Shown here: positions 10,265-63,031 of the stretch, piece by piece
Numbering within the stretch: position 1 is the stretch's first letter
How the letters are laid out: every line of letters begins with the position of its first letter
DNA from: Escherichia phage Ptacy1532
DNA: 64,000 bases
Strand: one strand, 5' to 3'
Sequence record: PQ863255.1
Translations under genes and position numbers: made by a program
Notes under the pieces: generated by a model
Seen by the model: only the letters and a program-made list of their open reading frames with translations
Told to the model about the DNA's origin: nothing
Databases searched by the model: none

Positions 10265-13200
10265 ATGGCTAACATTAAACCGTGGGAAGAAGCTTCCAAA
10301 GCTCCTGCGTATCTGAATGCCTCTCCGGAGCAACAAGCTCAAATGAGAGAACAATATAAGGCAGCAGGTGGCTCTATTCCTGAGGAACAACCAGTAGCAC
10401 AACCACAACAAGAAGAACGTGGTGCTATAGGTGAGTTTGCTCAAGGTGTGTCAAATGCTCTTCAATCTGGTGGTGCAAATATTGCAGCTAGTGCTGCTAA
10501 AGGTATTGGTGGTTTAGTTGAGATTGGTGAGAATCTAGCTGGAACACAAACTAGTTATGGTAAGCGTATCCAAGAGAACTCTCAGAACCTTCTGAAAGAA
10601 CGTATGGATAAGATTGAGGATGGGGTTGGTAAAACTGTTGGTCAGTATGCTGGCGTTGCTGGTGATATTGGTATGACTGTTGCTAATCCATTGGCTGCTG
10701 CTGCTATCATCGCAGGTCGTGAGACAGGTCGTGCGTATGCAGACCAAACACCTGAAGAGGGAGAAGATAAATCTATTCTAGATGCGGCCTTAGTTGGTGG
10801 TGCTAACTATGCGGCTCAGAGAATCCTTCCGGGTGCTGTTGGTACAGCTGAGTCCACACTTGGACGTATCGGTCAGAACGTTGCTAGTAACGCAGTGGCT
10901 GGTGCTAAAGGTGGCGCTCTTGTAGGTGCTGCTGAAGCTCAGAACAAGCATGGAGATGATACAACCTTTGCTAATGTATTAGAGGGTGCTATCGAAGAAG
11001 GTGCTATGGGTGCTGCATTTGGTGGTGCAGTTGGTGGGGTTCATGGTTTGATTAGCCGTCCAGACTCTGCTGTCTTCAAGAATACTCCAGAGTATGCGAA
11101 GACTGATATTGCTGCTGATGACGAACTAATTCGCAGTGCTAAGAATATTGATGAATTGAAAGAAGCCTACTCTAAAGCTGAAACTGCTAACGCTGCTTCT
11201 GCTCTGAATCTTCTGGATGAGAATGGATTCCGTATTACAGATGCTGTTGCTGTAGATTCTCCTGCTGCTCAGCGTATTCTCAATACTGACCAAGCTCGCG
11301 CTGAGAAAGCTGCTTCCATTCAGAAAGAACATTCCAACATTCCGGGCCTTAACCCTTTAGCTTCTCCTGCTAAGACTCGTGGTAAAGCATTCGCTGATAA
11401 CGAGCACAACCAGAAGCAGGCTGTTGCTATGAAGGATGCAATGGCTGATTACACCAAAGACAACACGAAAGCTCTTACAGATGTTCTAGATAATCTAGAC
11501 CGTGAATTAACATCTCTCCGAGCTTCTGGTGATTTTACTGGTAGTCCGATTGATATTAAGAATCGTACACAAGCCGACCGTGACTTCATTGATGCTTACA
11601 AGACTTTCTACAACGAAGCAAATCGATTCAAAGCTCGTGATGGTGAAGACTTTAATAACTTTGTAGAGAAAGCTGCTGAACTACAGAAGATGGCTGATAA
11701 TGTTTCTCCAGAGATGAAGAAAGCTATTGGTGGGTTGAAGAAACTGAAAGGTATGCCTGAAGGTTTTAATCCTATCCAAGATGCTTACACTCTGAACAAT
11801 ACAGCTAAGTTCATGAGCAATCAAGATCGTGGTTGGACTTCCCTGACTGATGATGGATTCCGTGAGGCTTCTTCACCTAGTCTGGTAATGAATACTCTCG
11901 GTGCTGCTAAGTATGCTCTGAATCGCTTCTCTTCTCAGCGTGCTCGCTCTCAACGCGTTAAACAACAAGAGTCTAACAGTGAAGCTATCCGCTCTCTGGC
12001 TCGTGGTGATTTGGAAGTTGCTCGTGCTAAGTCTACTGCTGACGAAGCTCGTGCTAAGATGGAAGAAGAACCAGTTGTTGATGACATTAAATTTAAGACG
12101 CAAAATGACGTAGAAACCGAACCGGTTCGGGAGCCTTCTTCTAGTACTGTGACGGAAGAAAATCTTCCTTCTTCTACTCCTCAAGAAACCCCTCTTACAG
12201 CTCGTGATTTAGTTGCGCAAAGACGCGCTATCCGTCAGGCTGAACAGCGTCGCGCTGAAGAAGAGGCATTGGCTGCTCAAGAAGCTCCGGTCGAACAAGC
12301 TCCACAGGCTGAACCTCTCCCTGCTCGTAACCCTTTAGAGGAACGTCGTGCAATGGAACAGCAACGTGCTCAAGAAGAGGCCGCACAGGCTCCAGAACCC
12401 ACCGTAGAGGAACCAATAGTCAAAGCTGAGCCATTACCTGCCCGTGCTCCTAAAGCTCCTAAGGAGGCTGTACAGGACGTTAAACCGGCAAGTGGTGTAG
12501 AACGTTTAGCTGCTATGTCTAGTGCTGCTCGTCAGGCTACCAAAGATCGTGCAGAACGTTTTGCTCGTTCTCTGTACTCCAAGGCTGCTAAGGCTAAAGC
12601 TACTGCTGAAAACTTCTTGGCTTATAAAGGTGATCCTAAGGAATTGATGCGTCGTATTCGTCAGGAAGATAATGCTATCAACACTGAACGTCATGAAGAA
12701 ATGGCTCGTAACCAGCTGGCTTCTCAGCAAGGTATTGCTACTGCTAAGAACAACACTGTACGAACTAATTTTGCTGAATGGGTTAAAGAGCGTGGTCTGC
12801 CAGAAGACATTGCTACTAAGGCATTACGTGCTGAAGAGAAAGGTTTAGGTGGGAACGTAACTAACTTGGATAGTCTGAAACGTCGTGCTGAAAGGTTGTA
12901 TCAGAAGCAGCGTGAGGATGAGTTTGATAGACTGTACCAACAAGCTCTAGAAGAGAATAAAGCTTTCGATAACAAGAATGCTCCTAAGCTGGCTGACCAG
13001 AAGAAAGAGCTTCAGTCTGAGATTGATGCTTTGATTGATTCAGAACCTTTACGTCCTGCTCAGAAAGATGCTATGCGTAAGCTGATGAATGATTTTGTAG
13101 ATGGGAAGTTTAAATCTTCAGAGAAGGCTGGTAGGGAAGAGGCTTTGGAAGTTGGTCAGATGAAGGATATTTGGGATGGGTTTATTAATACCTATAACAG

Positions 13201-51764: not shown

Positions 51765-51839
51765 TGGCGTTCCCTCGTGGAATCGAACCACGAATAAGAG
51801 CTTAGAAGGCTCCAGTTATATCCGTTTAACTAAGGGAAC
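51765..51839 (-). tRNA. tRNA-Arg (anticodon UCU)
   Basis: Cloverleaf folded by hand: acceptor GTTCCCT/AGGGAAC, D-stem GTTA/TAAC, anticodon stem GGAGC/GCTCT with loop CTTCTAA, T-arm CGTGG-TTCGATT-CCACG, encoded CCA. Confidence 0.8.
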
Positions 51840-57811: not shown

Positions 57812-57850
57812 TGATAAAAGAAAAGGCGCTACCCGTTAAGGTAGCGCCTT
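57812..57850 (-). terminator. Rho-independent terminator
   Basis: 11-bp stem AAGGCGCTACC/GGTAGCGCCTT with 6-nt loop, followed by TTTTCTTTTAT on the minus strand. Confidence 0.55.
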
Positions 57851-57872: not shown

Positions 57873-58772
57873 TTATGCCGCCTGACGTGCCGCCATAATC
57901 TCAGCCGCTTTACGCAACACTTCTTCCTCTTCTTCTTTCGCAGCTTGTTCGGTACGGGTAGCAACCGTTGAAGAGATACGACCGCGCAGTCCTTCTAACT
58001 TCTCCTGCATAGCTGCGATGGTCTTTTCCATTTCATCAGCGTATGAATCGAGGGATTCTAATTCCTTGCTTGATGCGTTCATCAGATAATCGTCAGAGAT
58101 CGCTACCGTCGAGGCCGTTACTTTCTTGATGAGCGAGTCAAAGGATTTTTTAACCTTGCCGACTTCTTCACTTAAGGCGATAGTGTTATCGCTAGTAGCG
58201 CCGTTGCGCTCATCAGCCAGCAATTTGGCTTCGATACGGATTACATTCAAGCGTTCAACTAAAGCGTAAATATCCTGATTAAAATCTTCCTTGTTTTTCG
58301 CCGGTATTTGCAGGTGTGCCGCCACGTTGTCATTGCAACCTTTGTAGAAGTTAGGATTATCCACTTCAATTGCACGACCTAAAGCAAAGTTTTCGAAAGC
58401 GTTTGACCAACGGGCGCGGTTTTGTTCCATTTTGGCCTTAATTTGCGCTTCTTTCGCGTCTTCTTTAGCTTTCGCCTCACCTTCCAGATTAATCCACTTT
58501 TTACGACCGTTCGCCGCATCAGTGTTAAACTTGATAGGAGTTAAGAAAGTAATTGCAGTGGCAATAACATCCATATCACGGAAACGTTCAGTTAACAAGA
58601 AGTCAACCGCCGCCTGCAATACGTCCAGCTTCTTACCATTACTGCGGAAGTGCTGTAAGTGTCCTAACAGGAAGTTAGAAACATCTTGTTTGATCGCCGC
58701 GTTATTACTGCGAATGTTGTTAGCCAGAGCATTAAAACCGGATTCGTTAACCAGAGTAAAGATTTTAGCCAT
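57873..58772 (-). CDS. hypothetical protein (299 aa, helical; first gene downstream of the ORF-free region)
   Basis: Track ORF trimmed to the ATG with AAAGGTGA RBS. Confidence 0.5.
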   Translation of the reverse strand: MAKIFTLVNESGFNALANNIRSNNAAIKQDVSNFLLGHLQHFRSNGKKLDVLQAAVDFLLTERFRDMDVIATAITFLTPIKFNTDAANGRKKWINLEGEAKAKEDAKEAQIKAKMEQNRARWSNAFENFALGRAIEVDNPNFYKGCNDNVAAHLQIPAKNKEDFNQDIYALVERLNVIRIEAKLLADERNGATSDNTIALSEEVGKVKKSFDSLIKKVTASTVAISDDYLMNASSKELESLDSYADEMEKTIAAMQEKLEGLRGRISSTVATRTEQAAKEEEEEVLRKAAEIMAARQAA

Positions 58773-58781
58773 GATATTCAC

Positions 58782-60751
58782 CTTTCAATTGTAAGGGCGC
58801 TATTGCCCCGCTCTCTATGAGCTTGTTTAAGTCACTATTAACTTAACTATAACCACTCGTTGTTAAGTAGTTATAGGTAAGCGGGGCGGTCTTATCAGGA
58901 GTTAACCTTGCCGCCCCCTTATCCGTGATGTTTCATCTGGTATCTTTAATTAGTCGCTATAAACGAAGCCGACCTGATAGCGATGATCAATCATCACAAT
59001 AAGGCTATGCGTCCGACTCTATTTAATTACATTACTGTAACCGTCGGCAATATCGTCCACTTTGTTTTCGCTCCCGCTTATCCTTTTATATCAGCTCTCT
59101 ATCGCTAGTCATCGCCCACTACGGGATACTATTGCGAAAGAGTCACTAACCGCCTATTATTCCGGCGTTTTATATCTTTCAGCAGGTTTACTACATAACC
59201 CGACTATGTACTTTCATCTTATAATGAATCTCAAGCCGTTCACATCGTAAACGTTCGCATTAAACCTTATTGTTAAATAGCAATTTGCCACTTTTTAACC
59301 ACTCACCGCCGCTCTCAATTGAGCGTTATTTCTTCGGGCTTGCCTACCCTGATTAACTTCTTTCACCGTAGCACCTTGTTAGCGATGACCGCCGCTACCC
59401 TTAACCGTGGGCGATTAGCTTAAGTCTTTGCGTATACTCGATGAATCCGTTTATCAGTGGTGACGTTTCCATCAAGGGATTGTAAGGCTGTTTTCTCTGA
59501 TAGTTTAGAGAGTCTTACATCGTTTTGTCTGGTATGTTATCCGATGGTTATTATCATCTAACATATTCAACCGATATAGGAGAATGTTTAAATTATTAAA
59601 GAGCGGTAAATCTATCAGTGTGCTTTCTCACACTATGCAACTGTTAGCCGTTGTTACGCTTTCCTTAAGCGGTGATTTGCTTAAGTGATGCTCATTATGA
59701 ATCATGTTGTTTTCGCTGTCAACCGCTTTTTAATCTTTTTCGTCGTTCCCGCTATTGGGAGGATATATCAATCAGCTTTATTTGATTGAAGATTAAGCGG
59801 TGATGCTTAACTTATGATTCATATTGTTAAAGAGCGTTAGCCTTTTAGAGTGTCTGCTAATCACTGTCACATTTAAGGCTTACTTATTCATTAACGGGCC
59901 GCCTACACCCGAACTACTCGCTGCACTATGTGCCACCTTTCCCGCGATACGTTGATTTGGGAACTAGTTAGCGATGTTTTGCTAACTTGTGGTTAGTATG
60001 GACTACTTTAACCACGTTTGCAAGCTCTTTTTATCATCTTCTTTTAATTCCTCTCCCTTATCTCGCGTGAATCTATGCGAAAGGGCAAGATGATAAGTCT
60101 GATTTGTCTTTTAGGAATCTAGCGCGCTTTCAAGCATTAATCTTTTGAAAGTATCGAACAAATAAGGCTTATTGATATTGCTTATTGTCCGCCTGCGTCA
60201 CGTATGAATCAGGAATCAATTCTACCGATTAACTGAGCGCCTTATAGTAATGACGTCGCCGCCACCCGTAAGACAAATCATATTTTTAAAGAGCGGGATT
60301 TTTCAAGTCATCGCTGACTATGCTCACTATATATCAGGCTTTTTCGGTGTCAATACTCTTTTCAAGTATTTTCACTTTCTAGCCTGATTTTTAAAGAGCG
60401 TAGCACTTTCATGTGCGTCCTGCTTTCGGTATTCCTACCGCTCCCCGTTGAAGCCTTTTACCGTGATGCTAATCACCTATCGAGGAGTTTTTTACTACTT
60501 GTTACTTACTGCTTACTACGGGATTCATATTACTATACAGGAAAACCCTGTCAATACCCTTTTTTCAAATTATTTTATATCTTACTGTTTTATAAAGGAA
60601 TTTATTTTAGGGAGGATAGGAACTACAAAGAAATCAGGGGGGATAGAGGAACGGGCGCGCGTGATACATCATAAGAAACGGCTTGTAAAGCAATAATAAG
60701 CGGCCTAGAACGCACTACAGCAAGCGAAAAGGGAGTAAGGCATACAATCAC
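58782..60751. repeat. ORF-poor region (~2 kb) with dispersed short direct repeats
   Basis: No ORF of 60 aa or more on the minus strand; ATATTnTTAAAGAGCG at about 59596, 59827, 60286, 60391; TAAGCGGTGAT(T)TGCTTAA at about 59666 and 59794. Confidence 0.5.
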
Positions 60752-60784
60752 CCTATAAAATAGAAAAGCCTCACTAGGAGGCTT
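60752..60784 (-). terminator. Rho-independent terminator
   Basis: AAGCCTC-CTAGT-GAGGCTT hairpin followed by TTTCTATTTTAT on the minus strand, about 75 nt after the stop of 60860..61225. Confidence 0.5.
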
Positions 60785-60859
60785 ACAGGAAGGATTAGAG
60801 AATCAGATAGATTATGACCATAGGCATGACTACAGCACAATACAGGAGAAAGATTAAGC

Positions 60860-61225
60860 CTATGGATTTACACATTGACCGTTACCGGATTCTACTTCGT
60901 TCATGGACTCATCAAAGAGTGTCAACGATGAGCGCATCAAGTGATCCACCGTGATTTGTTTACCAGTGGATTCGTTTACCAGTTGAATAGTTTTATCATA
61001 TGATTGAACATGATCGAAATCATTTACATGTAAAATAATAACTTTAGGTGACTTTTTACCAGTTTCATAATTCTCTACGAGATAGGTACACTGTAAACCG
61101 TCAACCGTATCAGGGGAGAATGTTGCAGCCTTAACGCTACCCATAGCCGATAGCAGGACACCTAACAGAAGAACGACCAGAAAGAAGCCTACAACCATCT
61201 TAACGACGAATTTAATAAACCACAT
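60860..61225 (-). CDS. membrane-anchored/secreted protein
   Basis: N-terminal hydrophobic segment FIKFVVKMVVGFFLVVLLLGVLLSA. Confidence 0.45.
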   Translation of the reverse strand: MWFIKFVVKMVVGFFLVVLLLGVLLSAMGSVKAATFSPDTVDGLQCTYLVENYETGKKSPKVIILHVNDFDHVQSYDKTIQLVNESTGKQITVDHLMRSSLTLFDESMNEVESGNGQCVNP

Positions 61226-61581: not shown

Positions 61582-61801
61582 AACGTTTCCAATCCTTATT
61601 GTATTTGAGAATAGACACATACTCAGGGCCGGACAAAGTGCCGCCTAAGTAAGTAACCGTCATTCGTGCGCTAAACTCTGAAAGGTTGCACAATACGGCA
61701 AGTGGTACACGACTTTCACCGCGACTACTTGCAACTAACACAACATTATCAAAGATAGTTACGCTATCATTAACAAGGATGTTATTTCCCATTGGTATCA
61801 T
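61571..61801 (-). CDS. small protein, member of a 3-gene tandem paralog set
   Basis: RVPLAVLCNL core; start uncertain. Confidence 0.4.
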   Translation of the reverse strand: MIPMGNNILVNDSVTIFDNVVLVASSRGESRVPLAVLCNLSEFSARMTVTYLGGTLSGPEYVSILKYNKDWKRYGE

Positions 61802-62048
61802 CCTTAATTAATCCTTCACTTAACAGATTAGTCAGTGACAAATCACCGTCAATATAGATTGACTTGAAATCATCGCGGTTAATATCAATACGCACCAATT
61901 GAAGCCATTTTTTGGCCTCATTAAAGCTCATGGAACAAAAAGCAACAACGGGAACTATAATCTGACCATCGCGCATATTAAACTCGATAGATTGCCCACC
62001 AACAAAACAAGAAAAGCCGTTAGATAATTTAACTTCTTTGATAGCCAT
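61782..62048 (-). CDS. small protein, member of a 3-gene tandem paralog set
   Basis: QIIVPVVAFCSM core. Confidence 0.45.
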   Translation of the reverse strand: MAIKEVKLSNGFSCFVGGQSIEFNMRDGQIIVPVVAFCSMSFNEAKKWLQLVRIDINRDDFKSIYIDGDLSLTNLLSEGLIKDDTNGK

Positions 62049-62957: not shown

Positions 62958-63003
62958 TTTGTTAATCCTTTTGGTTGATGAAAACTACAAACTACACTCG
63001 CAA

Positions 63004-63031
63004 CTATATAATAAAGGAAAAAGCTGTCAAC
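63004..63031 (-). promoter_or_regulatory. sigma70-like early promoter for the minus-strand block
   Basis: Minus strand reads TTGACA-16 nt-TATAGT about 45 nt upstream of the 62957 start codon. Confidence 0.4.

What the first reader, a model, noticed from the sequence alone, without database searches (positions are those of the whole stretch)
58782..60859. About 2 kb without any sizeable ORF inside the early gene block, carrying dispersed direct repeats
Every other part of the minus block is packed with overlapping genes, but here no ORF of 60 aa or more exists on the coding strand for about 2 kb. The region is bounded by a terminator at about 60752-60784 and the RBS of gene 57873..58772. It contains four copies of ATATTnTTAAAGAGCG, two copies of TAAGCGGTGAT(T)TGCTTAA, GC-rich inverted repeats (for example GCGGGGCGG / CCGCCCCC near 58881-58918) and CG-dinucleotide-rich composition unlike flanking coding DNA. 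Candidates are a replication origin with iterons, a packaging or terminal-repeat region, or a large structured non-coding RNA.
Basis: seen in the sequence. Interest (0 to 1): 0.7.

Follow-up and report, generated by a model that had tools for sequence, protein, structure and literature searches.

The report
Phage early-operon leader: boxA cassettes, large RNA
The 2-kb "empty" stretch of this phiEco32-like coliphage holds several host-type promoters, each followed by the same anti-termination signal (boxA) that E. coli uses for ribosomal RNA, and they drive a previously undescribed, elaborately folded non-coding RNA of about 830 bases that runs into one conserved gene of unknown function.

Summary
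Window 58773-60765 has no conserved ORF on either strand, and about 100 Kuravirus-like phages keep it as well as or better than the flanking genes.

That is a perfect E. coli boxA (consensus GYTCTTTAANA). Four copies occur, all on the transcribed (minus) strand. Each follows a near-consensus sigma-70 promoter, usually just after a small hairpin, as in rrn leaders (boxB then boxA).

Downstream of the last cassette lies an RNA of about 830 nt (58790-59592) with two multi-helix domains and a row of 3' hairpins:
- MFE z-score about -7.5.
- 237 predicted pairs, 99.4% kept in 23 phages.
- 77 pairs with compensatory changes, against 34.5 in shuffles and 5-11 in slid controls.

Unclassified relatives whose downstream protein is only 50-70% identical keep the same unit: promoter-boxA cassettes, then 870-940 nt of leader, then the gp124 homologue, then an intrinsic terminator. 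A covariance model from the close phages finds each of them (E 1e-12 to 1e-42).

No Rfam family, tRNA or host sequence matches. The origin-with-iterons and terminal-repeat readings are not supported.

Best reading: Nus-factor (rrn-type) antitermination lets host polymerase make a long untranslated structured RNA. The RNA's own function is unknown.

The parts
60766..60784 (-). Intrinsic terminator closing the upstream gp125-128 operon (AAGCCTCCTAGTGAGGCTT followed by a T-run).
   Evidence: Annotated as a terminator in phage SU10.
60527..60554 (-). Promoter P1, TTGACA-16-TAATAT, preceded by an A/T-rich stretch.
   Evidence: The equivalent promoter is present in phiEco32 and EP335.
60403..60416 (-). 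Small hairpin GCAC-AUGAAA-GUGC ending 2 nt before boxA1 (boxB-like position).
60388..60400 (-). boxA1, CGCTCTTTAAAAA. Perfect match to GYTCTTTAANA.
60326..60353 (-). Promoter P2, TTGACA-16-TATAGT (11 of 12).
   Evidence: The same sequence is listed as an early promoter in the SU10 S2 table.
60283..60295 (-). boxA2, CGCTCTTTAAAAA, about 25 nt after the P2 start. It lies inside the spacer of a doubtful third promoter-like site (60277-60306).
60030..60110 (-). Conserved island forming a long nested hairpin (CTTATCATCTT ... AAGATGATAA). It lies between cassettes 2 and 3.
   Evidence: Column conservation is 0.93 across 13 phages. One A:U to G:C compensatory change is seen in PAS59, SU7 and O18-011, and one mismatch in EK010.
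59824..59836 (-). boxA3, CGCTCTTTAACAA. Identical to the E. coli rrn core GCTCTTTAACAA.
59793..59810 (-). Hairpin UUAAGC-AUCACC-GCUUAA, 13 nt after boxA3.
59694..59722 (-). Promoter P4, TTGACA-17-CATAAT. It is the last promoter and is conserved in all relatives, including the distant clades.
   Evidence: Listed in the SU10 S2 table.
59665..59684 (-). Hairpin at the very 5' end of the P4 transcript (UUAAGC-AAAUCACC-GCUUAA).
59616..59635 (-). boxB-like hairpin H4 (GUGUG-AGAAAG-CACAC), 10 nt before boxA4.
   Evidence: Three of its 7 pairs show compensatory changes. A hairpin is kept at this position, with a different stem sequence, in all distant clades.
59593..59605 (-). boxA4, CGCTCTTTAATAA. 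In many relatives it reads CGCTCTTTAACAATTTA, which is 16 of 16 with the rrnB leader.
   Evidence: It is always 828-939 nt before the ATG.
59294..59592 (-). RNA domain I, closed by helix 59592-59580 x 59307-59294. It contains a long arm, 59464-59434 x 59374-59342.
   Evidence: The closing helices are 73-92% paired in distant clades.
59275..59293 (-). Hairpin H20 between the two domains. It includes the invariant boxA-like TGCTATTTAACAA, which is base-paired here.
58996..59273 (-). RNA domain II, closed by the 10-bp helix 59273-59264 x 59005-58996.
   Evidence: The closing helix is 96% paired in the distant clades, with 5 pairs changed on both sides.
58790..58995 (-). Row of 3' hairpins (H32-H39).
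   Evidence: Model R1, built on 58790-58977, finds one full-length match per distant locus, with E from 1e-12 to 1e-42. On that alignment 35 of 43 pairs covary.
58773..58786 (-). Shine-Dalgarno region (AAAGGUGAAUAUC) of the downstream gene.
57873..58772 (-). Gene for a 299-aa protein (phiEco32 gp124 family, phrog_13018; function unknown). It always follows the RNA.
57823..57850 (-). Strong intrinsic terminator about 20 nt after the gene (12-bp stem, then UUUUCUUUU).
   Evidence: An equivalent terminator with a different stem sequence follows the gene in seven of the eight distant loci examined; in the eighth (L049) the hairpin is not followed by a T-run.

Best explanation
The gap is the control region and untranslated leader of a conserved early transcription unit. 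The unit is read leftwards (minus strand) by host sigma-70 RNA polymerase.

Shown by the sequence:
1. Three or four near-consensus promoters lie in tandem.
2. Each is followed within about 25-125 nt by a small hairpin and a perfect E. coli boxA. This is the boxB-then-boxA layout of rRNA operon leaders.
3. Directly after the last boxA comes about 830 nt of RNA (870-940 nt in distant relatives). It is folded into roughly 35 helices: two closed multi-helix domains and a row of 3' hairpins. Compensatory substitutions maintain the fold.
4. The RNA runs straight into the ribosome-binding site of one gene (the gp124 family). A strong intrinsic terminator follows that gene.

Inferred mechanism: as each boxA emerges in the nascent RNA it binds NusB-S10. 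Together with NusA, NusG and SuhB this converts the polymerase into the Rho-resistant, fast, RNA-chaperoning form used for rRNA. Without that conversion, Rho would be expected to terminate 0.9-1.8 kb of untranslated RNA. Having one cassette per promoter ensures that every transcript carries a boxA.

The structured RNA is itself the product under selection. Its function is not known. My preferred guess (about 0.4) is that it acts as an RNA together with the co-transcribed gp124 protein early in infection. The next guess (about 0.3) is that it is a purely cis-acting leader that sets the stability or translation of gp124.
For: Promoters and boxA:
- Promoter-like sites on the minus strand score 10-11 of 12. 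Two of them were predicted independently for phage SU10.
- GYTCTTTAANA, the gamma-proteobacterial boxA consensus (PMC5725501), occurs 4 times in 64 kb. All four are minus strand and all lie in the gap. Chance gives 0.73.
- Each of 23 related loci has 3-5 copies in the gap on the transcribed strand.
- The rrnB leader, read directly, is TGCTCTTTAACAATTTATCAG after a hairpin.
- Promoter and boxA alternate in every phage examined.
- In 92 distinct boxA contexts, 88% have a hairpin in the 44 nt upstream. It most often ends 0-2 nt before boxA.
- The promoter of the upstream operon (63003-63030), which has a short leader, has no boxA.

Non-coding status and conservation:
- No ORF is conserved on either strand.
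- The leader is as conserved as the flanking genes, or more so. For SU7 it is 0.89-0.93 against 0.72-0.79.

RNA structure:
- MFE z-score is -7.5 to -8.2 for the transcribed strand, -3.9 for the other strand, and -1 to -3.2 for coding controls.
- Of 237 pairs, 99.4% of cells are paired. 77 pairs show double changes, against 34.5 +/- 3.4 in shuffles (0 of 500 reach it) and 5-11 when partners are slid.
- 11% of cells are G:U. The same pairs read on the other strand would be only 88.5% paired.

Distant relatives:
- Relatives with a 50-70% identical gp124 keep the whole unit.
- The structure projected onto a sequence-only alignment is 68.5% paired, against 36-44% when slid.
- Model R1 finds all of them, and 35 of 43 pairs covary.

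Precedent: boxA protecting long untranslated RNA from Rho is established for rRNA and for CRISPR arrays (PMC7665894; PMC12360218).
Against: - No transcript, 5' end or 3' end data were available. Promoter use, Nus-factor binding and Rho sensitivity are all inferred.
- No boxC-like GU-rich element follows the boxA copies.
- BoxA can also promote Rho termination and repress translation, as at suhB. The sign of the effect is therefore not proven.
- From memory, rrn-type complexes are less effective at intrinsic terminators. Read-through of the terminator at 57823-57850 into the rest of the early genes is therefore uncertain.
- A partnership between the RNA and gp124 rests only on conserved adjacency. 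The gp124 structure model was too poor to use (pLDDT 63).
- Most of the close phages are 85-98% identical, so many covarying cells are inherited rather than independent events.
Confidence: 0.72

Rival explanations
1. The structured RNA is only a cis-acting 5' untranslated leader. It would work as a stabiliser, a translational gate or a sensor for the gp124 gene. The boxA cassettes would exist only to let polymerase reach that gene.
For: The RNA always abuts the ribosome-binding site of gp124, and the unit ends at a terminator right after that gene. In the Kuravirus group a 7-bp helix can pair the sequence just 5' of boxA4 with the Shine-Dalgarno region. A hairpin sits at the very 5' end of the P4 transcript.
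Against: From general knowledge, 830-940 nt with about 35 conserved helices is far larger than any known bacterial regulatory leader. The helix that occludes the Shine-Dalgarno region never varies in the close group, and it is not conserved in the distant clades.
Confidence: 0.3
2. The multiple boxA copies on an abundant early transcript act mainly as a decoy. They would titrate NusB-S10 and SuhB away from host rRNA operons and so contribute to host shut-off.
For: Each full-length transcript carries three to five perfect boxA copies behind strong promoters. The copy number is conserved even where the flanking sequence is not.
Against: One boxA per promoter is explained simply by the need for every transcript to carry one. 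The same promoter-boxA modules appear at the early ends of other virulent phages that lack any long RNA. No measurement bears on titration.
Confidence: 0.1
3. The region is a replication origin. The repeats would be iterons, or the structured transcript would be a pre-primer as in ColE1 RNA II or the T7 primary origin.
For: The region has dispersed direct repeats, strong promoters and a G-rich transcript. The origin of these phages has not been mapped, to my knowledge.
Against: The repeat core equals boxA exactly, is strand-specific and is tied to promoters rather than arrayed. Cumulative GC skew does not turn here. G:U-tolerant covariation points to selection on RNA folding across the whole 830 nt, not on protein-binding DNA repeats.
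Confidence: 0.06
4. The region is decayed gene remnants, or a neutral spacer that merely carries promoters.
For: Annotators in some records called small ORFs here.
Against: Those ORFs are not conserved. Conservation equals or exceeds that of the neighbouring genes. 77 pairs show compensatory changes. Structure and length are kept in clades whose flanking protein is only 50% identical.
Confidence: 0.02
5. The region is a packaging signal or terminal-repeat region.
For: It lies in the last 5 kb of the deposited linear genomes.
Against: It is internal to the records. The annotated direct terminal repeat of phage 4E8 lies beyond the upstream operon. The sequence is not duplicated elsewhere in the window: model R1 gives a single hit.
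Confidence: 0.02

Closest known systems
E. coli rRNA operon leader (tandem P1/P2 promoters, boxB-boxA-boxC, Nus-factor/SuhB antitermination complex)
   Same: Both have tandem strong sigma-70 promoters. Both place a hairpin immediately 5' of boxA. The boxA is identical: GCTCTTTAACAA in the window, and GCTCTTTAACAATTTA (16 of 16) in relatives. In both cases the product is a long, highly structured, untranslated RNA.
   Different: This one is phage-borne and has 3-5 cassettes rather than one per leader. It has no boxC-like GU-rich element. The RNA has no similarity to rRNA or to any host sequence. It is followed by a protein gene and an intrinsic terminator.
boxA upstream of CRISPR arrays (Stringer et al. 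2020, PMC7665894) and in the suhB leader (Baniulyte et al. 2017, PMC5725501)
   Same: These are non-rRNA uses of a consensus boxA. At CRISPR arrays the role is to protect a long untranslated transcript from Rho.
   Different: Those are chromosomal, single-copy elements. Here the element is in a virulent phage, is repeated behind each promoter, and precedes a folded RNA rather than a repeat array.
Lambda nut sites with N protein; HK022 put RNA
   Same: Both are phage early-operon antitermination signals that act in the nascent RNA.
   Different: Lambda uses a shorter boxA variant (CGCTCTTA, from memory), the order boxA then boxB, and needs N. I did not search for an N-like protein. The put RNA works without Nus factors, through about 70 nt of structure. 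Here the layout and the sequence are of the rrn type.
Large ornate non-coding RNAs of unknown function, some of them phage-borne (GOLLD, ROOL, OLE)
   Same: Shared features are size (0.6-0.9 kb), many covarying helices and multi-helix junctions, occurrence in phage genomes, and unknown function. From memory, OLE has adjacent partner-protein genes.
   Different: There is no match to any of the 4227 Rfam models, even at E up to 10. This RNA belongs to virulent enterobacterial podophages. It sits as the 5' part of an mRNA behind boxA cassettes.
Bacteriophage T7 early region (promoters A1-A3 ahead of gene 0.3)
   Same: Both have a cluster of strong host promoters at the head of early transcription. 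This comparison is from memory.
   Different: T7 has a short leader and no large structured RNA. In kuraviruses the promoters are interleaved with boxA.

Membership tests
boxA (NusB-S10 binding) antitermination element, rrn type | RNA-strand match to the gamma-proteobacterial consensus GYTCTTTAANA. | tested here: met
   Four perfect matches, all on the transcribed strand and all in the gap. Chance gives 0.73 per window. There are 3-5 per relative and 2-3 in distant clades. The rrnB leader served as a positive control.
boxA (NusB-S10 binding) antitermination element, rrn type | Lies in the transcript shortly after a promoter and ahead of RNA that is exposed to Rho (untranslated). | tested here: met
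   Each boxA is 25-125 nt after a site scoring 10-12 of 12 against the sigma-70 consensus. Downstream of it, 0.83-1.8 kb has no conserved ORF.
boxA (NusB-S10 binding) antitermination element, rrn type | boxB hairpin 5' of boxA (rrn order). This feature is dispensable in rrn. | tested here: met
   88% of 92 boxA contexts have an upstream hairpin, most often ending 0-2 nt before boxA. The hairpin before boxA4 covaries.
boxA (NusB-S10 binding) antitermination element, rrn type | boxC (GU-rich) 3' of boxA. | tested here: not met
   The sequences after the four copies are A/U-rich (AAUCAGG, UAUGAUU, UAUGAAU, UUUAAAC). They are not like the UGUGUGGG of rrnB.
boxA (NusB-S10 binding) antitermination element, rrn type | Binding of NusB-S10 and SuhB, and Rho-resistant elongation. 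| not testable with these tools
   This needs ChIP, in vitro transcription, or infection of nus mutant hosts.
Lambda-type nut site | boxA followed by a boxB hairpin that binds a phage N protein. | not tested
   Only boxA3 is followed by a hairpin. No search for an arginine-rich N-like protein was made.
Any curated RNA family (Rfam 15: GOLLD, ROOL, OLE, introns, RNase P, tmRNA, 6S, riboswitches and others) | Covariance-model score at or near the family's gathering threshold. | tested here: not met
   Only a tRNA-Arg elsewhere in the window passes. In the region the best hits have E of 2.8-5.4, far below threshold.
tRNA gene cluster | Cloverleaf genes found by ARAGORN. | tested here: not met
   There is one tRNA in the window, at 51765-51839. 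There is none in the gap.
Iteron-type replication origin | A tight array of direct repeats that bind an initiator, next to an A/T-rich unwinding element, with a skew change. | tested here: not met
   The repeats are spaced 105-460 bp apart, are strand-specific, and equal boxA. Cumulative GC skew does not turn. Origin activity itself cannot be tested here.
Terminal repeat or packaging region | Located at the physical genome ends, or duplicated at both ends. | tested here: not met
   The region is internal in phiEco32 (72787-74730 of 77554). The direct terminal repeat of phage 4E8 is annotated elsewhere.

The most novel reading that the evidence does not exclude
The 830-940 nt RNA is a new class of large structured phage RNA. 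It would be made by an rRNA-style (Nus-modified, chaperoning) transcription complex and would act in trans during host takeover. It could act as a ribonucleoprotein with gp124, or as a decoy or sponge for host RNA-binding machinery such as Nus factors, ribosomal proteins, RNases or an RNA-sensing defence. More broadly, promoter-boxA cassettes would be a general, unrecognised way for virulent phages that depend on host polymerase to make their early transcription Rho-proof.
Probability: 0.35. Interest if true: 0.9.

Novelty: new variant of a known kind. Interest (0 to 1): 0.8.

Why it matters
phiEco32 is a model phage for transcription control, through its own sigma factor and gp79. Yet this 2-kb region is left blank in about 100 genome records, or filled with spurious small ORFs.

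If the reading is right, it matters in three ways:
1. It shows a virulent phage copying the host's rRNA antitermination signal without a lambda-N-type system. That would explain how a long untranslated early transcript escapes Rho. It may also bear on the unexplained read-through that was postulated for phage 7-11, although no boxA was found on the early strand in the right-hand 30 kb of that phage (PMC8948821).
2. It adds a large, richly covarying RNA to the very short list of ornate bacterial and phage RNAs. This one sits in a genetically tractable E. coli system with an obvious candidate partner gene, so its function can be tested directly.
3. It corrects the annotation of a phage group that is widely proposed for therapy.

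Tried and rejected
- A tRNA cluster was my first guess. ARAGORN finds none in the gap.
- Rfam at gathering thresholds and at E up to 10 gives nothing meaningful.
- Similarity to the host or to bacteria is absent: no match in 5,426 E. coli genomes, and no exact match of a conserved 24-base motif from the RNA in the GTDB genome collection.
- Widening the family by DNA pattern gave little. IMG/VR returned only the 5 known kuravirus contigs. Metagenomes gave 7 more close relatives and 3 unrelated contigs.
- A closing helix pairing the sequence 5' of boxA4 with the Shine-Dalgarno region was predicted by RNAalifold. It never varies on both sides in the close group and is absent from the distant clades. 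I do not count it as part of the conserved structure.
- The third promoter-like site (60277-60306, spacer of 18) has boxA2 inside its spacer and is probably not a promoter.
- The boxA-like sequence at 12780-12792 lies antisense inside a 1488-aa gene and is a chance match.
- The degenerate 'fifth boxA', TGCTATTTAACAA at 59270-59282, is base-paired within the RNA (helices H20 and H21). It is not a free boxA.
- Salmonella phage 7-11 has no boxA on the early strand in its right-hand 30 kb and no comparable gap.
- For gp124, Pfam gives no hit and the PHROG family has unknown function. AlphaFold on 19 homologues gave pLDDT 63 and pTM 0.39, so no fold search was run.
- The two primary phiEco32 papers (PMC2587145, PMC3275717) are not held in the library. 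I cannot exclude that they remark on the gap.
- Searches of the held literature found no mention of boxA or of a structured RNA in these phages.
Full report
**What the window is.** The region is 98% identical to Escherichia phage vB_EcoP_WFI101126 and 91-95% identical to phiEco32, SU10, Paul and others. About 100 phage records match it, all from E. coli or Shigella phages of the Gordonclarkvirinae. In phiEco32 it is the unannotated stretch between genes 124 and 125. In SU10 it lies between CDS120 and CDS121. The SU10 paper calls it a 'spacer' holding three predicted sigma-70 promoters after a terminator (PMC4281155).

**Checking the observation.**
- The minus strand has no ORF above 42 aa between 58782 and 60859.
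- Across 13 relatives no minus-strand ORF of 25 aa or more is shared in 58773-59850. The three plus-strand ORFs of 62-87 aa carry stops in most relatives.
- The TTAAGCGGTGAT..GCTTAA element occurs twice, against 0 expected.
- CpG observed/expected is 1.2-1.3 here against 0.67-0.84 in coding DNA, at ordinary G+C.
- The bounding terminator at 60766-60784 is present.

**What the repeats are.** Read on the transcribed (minus) strand, the repeat is CGCTCTTTAAnAA. The published gamma-proteobacterial boxA consensus is GYTCTTTAANA (PMC5725501).
- It has exactly four matches in the 64-kb window. All are minus strand and all lie within 59594-60399. Chance gives 0.73.
- I read the E. coli rrnB leader directly. 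It is a hairpin, then TGCTCTTTAACAATTTATCAG.
- boxA3 of the window equals the rrn core. boxA4 of many relatives equals rrn over 16 bases.
- A consensus scan finds minus-strand promoters at 60554-60527, 60353-60326 and 59722-59694, scoring 10-11 of 12.
- In every phage examined, promoters and boxA copies alternate, with boxA 25-125 nt downstream of the promoter.
- All 23 close relatives carry 3-5 consensus boxA copies in the gap, including in segments whose surrounding sequence is not conserved.
- In 92 distinct boxA contexts, 88% have a hairpin in the preceding 44 nt. It most often ends 0-2 nt before boxA, which is the rrn boxB-boxA order.
- The only other boxA-like site in the window is antisense inside a large gene.
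- The promoter of the upstream operon, which has a short leader, has no boxA.

**The RNA.** Conservation is highest from 58773 to about 59850, downstream of the last promoter. It equals or exceeds that of the flanking genes. For SU7 it is 0.89-0.93 against 0.72-0.79. For Bas88 it is 0.83-0.91 against 0.70-0.77.
- Folding energy: the 921-nt minus-strand RNA folds at -272 kcal/mol against -220 for dinucleotide shuffles, giving z of -7.5 to -8.2. The other strand gives -3.9, and five coding controls give -1.0 to -3.2.
- Consensus structure: an alignment of 23 phages (A1) gives an RNAalifold structure of 237 pairs in 39 helices.
- Pair counts: 99.4% of cells are paired. 77 pairs have changes on both sides, against 34.5 +/- 3.4 in 500 shuffles (none reaches it) and 5-11 when partners are slid by 1-3 columns.
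- Strand: 11% of cells are G:U and 67 pairs alternate between G:U and Watson-Crick. The same pairs on the plus strand would be only 88.5% paired. Selection therefore acts on the minus-strand transcript.
- Layout in window coordinates:
  - a boxB-like hairpin at 59635-59616;
  - boxA4 at 59605-59593;
  - domain I at 59592-59294;
  - a hairpin at 59293-59275;
  - domain II at 59273-58996;
  - seven hairpins down to 58794;
  - the Shine-Dalgarno sequence and the ATG at 58772.

**Deeper relatives.** A protein search with gp124 found homologues at about 70% and about 50% identity on unclassified contigs. These contigs share only 9-23% of their DNA with known kuraviruses.
- All of them have a gene-free stretch of 1.4-3.4 kb upstream (where the contig extends far enough), and 2-3 consensus boxA copies behind promoters.
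- The last boxA lies 873-939 nt before the ATG, although the leader sequence is largely different.
- Projecting the close-group structure onto a sequence-only alignment (A2) gives 68.5% pairing in the nine distant sequences, against 36-44% when slid. Domain II and the 3' hairpins are 78-96% paired, with most pairs changed on both sides.
- A covariance model built only from the close phages on 58790-58977 finds exactly one full-length match in each distant locus, just before the gp124 homologue. E-values run from 1e-12 to 1e-42. It finds nothing in phage 7-11 and no second copy in the window.
- On that alignment 35 of 43 pairs covary and 95% of cells are paired. The alignment was fitted to the model, so it leans towards the structure.
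- The gene is followed within about 20-30 nt by a GC-rich hairpin in the window and in all eight distant loci examined. It carries the T-run of an intrinsic terminator in the window and in seven of those eight; the stems differ in sequence.
- The conserved unit is therefore: cassettes, RNA, gp124, terminator.

**How it most likely works.**
- Shown: the promoters, the boxA copies, the hairpins, the non-coding status and the covarying structure.
- Inferred from established knowledge: NusB-S10 bind boxA and nucleate a Rho-resistant complex at rRNA operons and CRISPR arrays (PMC7665894, PMC12360218). Each nascent boxA would load Nus factors, so that host polymerase crosses 0.9-1.8 kb of untranslated RNA.
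- What the RNA then does is unknown. Its size, its domain organisation and its fixed association with gp124 make me favour an RNA that functions as such, possibly together with gp124. A pure 5' leader is my second choice.

**Rivals.** Origin-with-iterons, terminal repeat and decayed genes are each contradicted by specific results. A Nus-factor decoy role cannot be excluded.

**What is known.** No Rfam family matches. The held literature does not mention boxA or a structured RNA in these phages. The two primary phiEco32 papers could not be read. I rate the finding as a new variant of known kinds: rrn-type boxA antitermination used by a virulent phage, combined with a new large structured RNA.

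Noticed in passing
L061 741-1567 (Pseudomonas phage Achelous, left end); L058 6902-7044 (Proteus phage PM135, T5-like, pre-early region): A scan of IMG/VR for a sigma-70 promoter followed within 15-45 nt by boxA hit at least 120 contigs. My rough estimate of chance is of the same order, so single hits mean little. However, clustered double and triple hits lie at the early, host-transcribed ends of a T7-like Pseudomonas phage and of T5-like phages. Promoter-boxA cassettes may therefore be a wider phage strategy, one that does not come with the large RNA.
   Followed up: partly
L042, L044, L045, L047, L049, L051-L054 (Logan assemblies): These are unclassified relatives of kuraviruses, with gp124 at 50-70% identity and only 9-23% DNA coverage against known phages. 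In L044 and L045 the cassette-plus-RNA region directly abuts the divergently oriented late block that includes the large terminase, with about 3 kb gene-free between them.
   Followed up: partly
L032 2675-2697, L038 1310-1332, L040 1916-1938: Three A/T-rich metagenome contigs share only the 23-nt AATTGCTATTTAACAATAAGGTA with the phage RNA. In them it sits in an intergenic spot upstream of a terminator-like hairpin. It could be coincidence or a boxA-like element of another phylum.
   Followed up: no
window 60860-61225 and 61782-62048; NJ01 locus L006 3699-3866: Small early proteins are named 'terminase', 'polymerase' and 'cathepsin L-like proteinase' in several records and PHROG families (phrog_13168, phrog_14176). 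They are 55-121 aa. The two that lie in the window have no Pfam hit; the NJ01 'cathepsin' ORF was not scanned. The names look like propagated mis-annotations.
   Followed up: no
window 59880-59990: A segment of about 108 nt is present in the window, in MN05 and, at a slightly different place, in TH34, but is absent from most relatives. It contains its own hairpin (GTTAGC-AAAACATC-GCTAAC). It looks like an optional inserted module between cassettes 2 and 3.
   Followed up: no
window 60600-60665 (minus strand): A pyrimidine-rich, G-poor tract (cccgttcctctatcccccctgatttctttgtagttcctatcctccc) lies between the upstream terminator and P1. It could serve as a Rho loading site that backs up the terminator.
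   Followed up: no
SU7, PAS59, TH34, Bas88 loci (e.g. L005 3829-4029): In the Suseptimavirus-like phages the promoter-proximal part of the gap is replaced by a different segment. That segment carries a 66-79 aa ORF (SU7_114) and further boxA copies upstream of it.
   Followed up: no
window 51765-51839: A single tRNA-Arg (anticodon TCT) lies on the minus strand. It is the only RNA gene that the standard tools recognise in the window.
   Followed up: no
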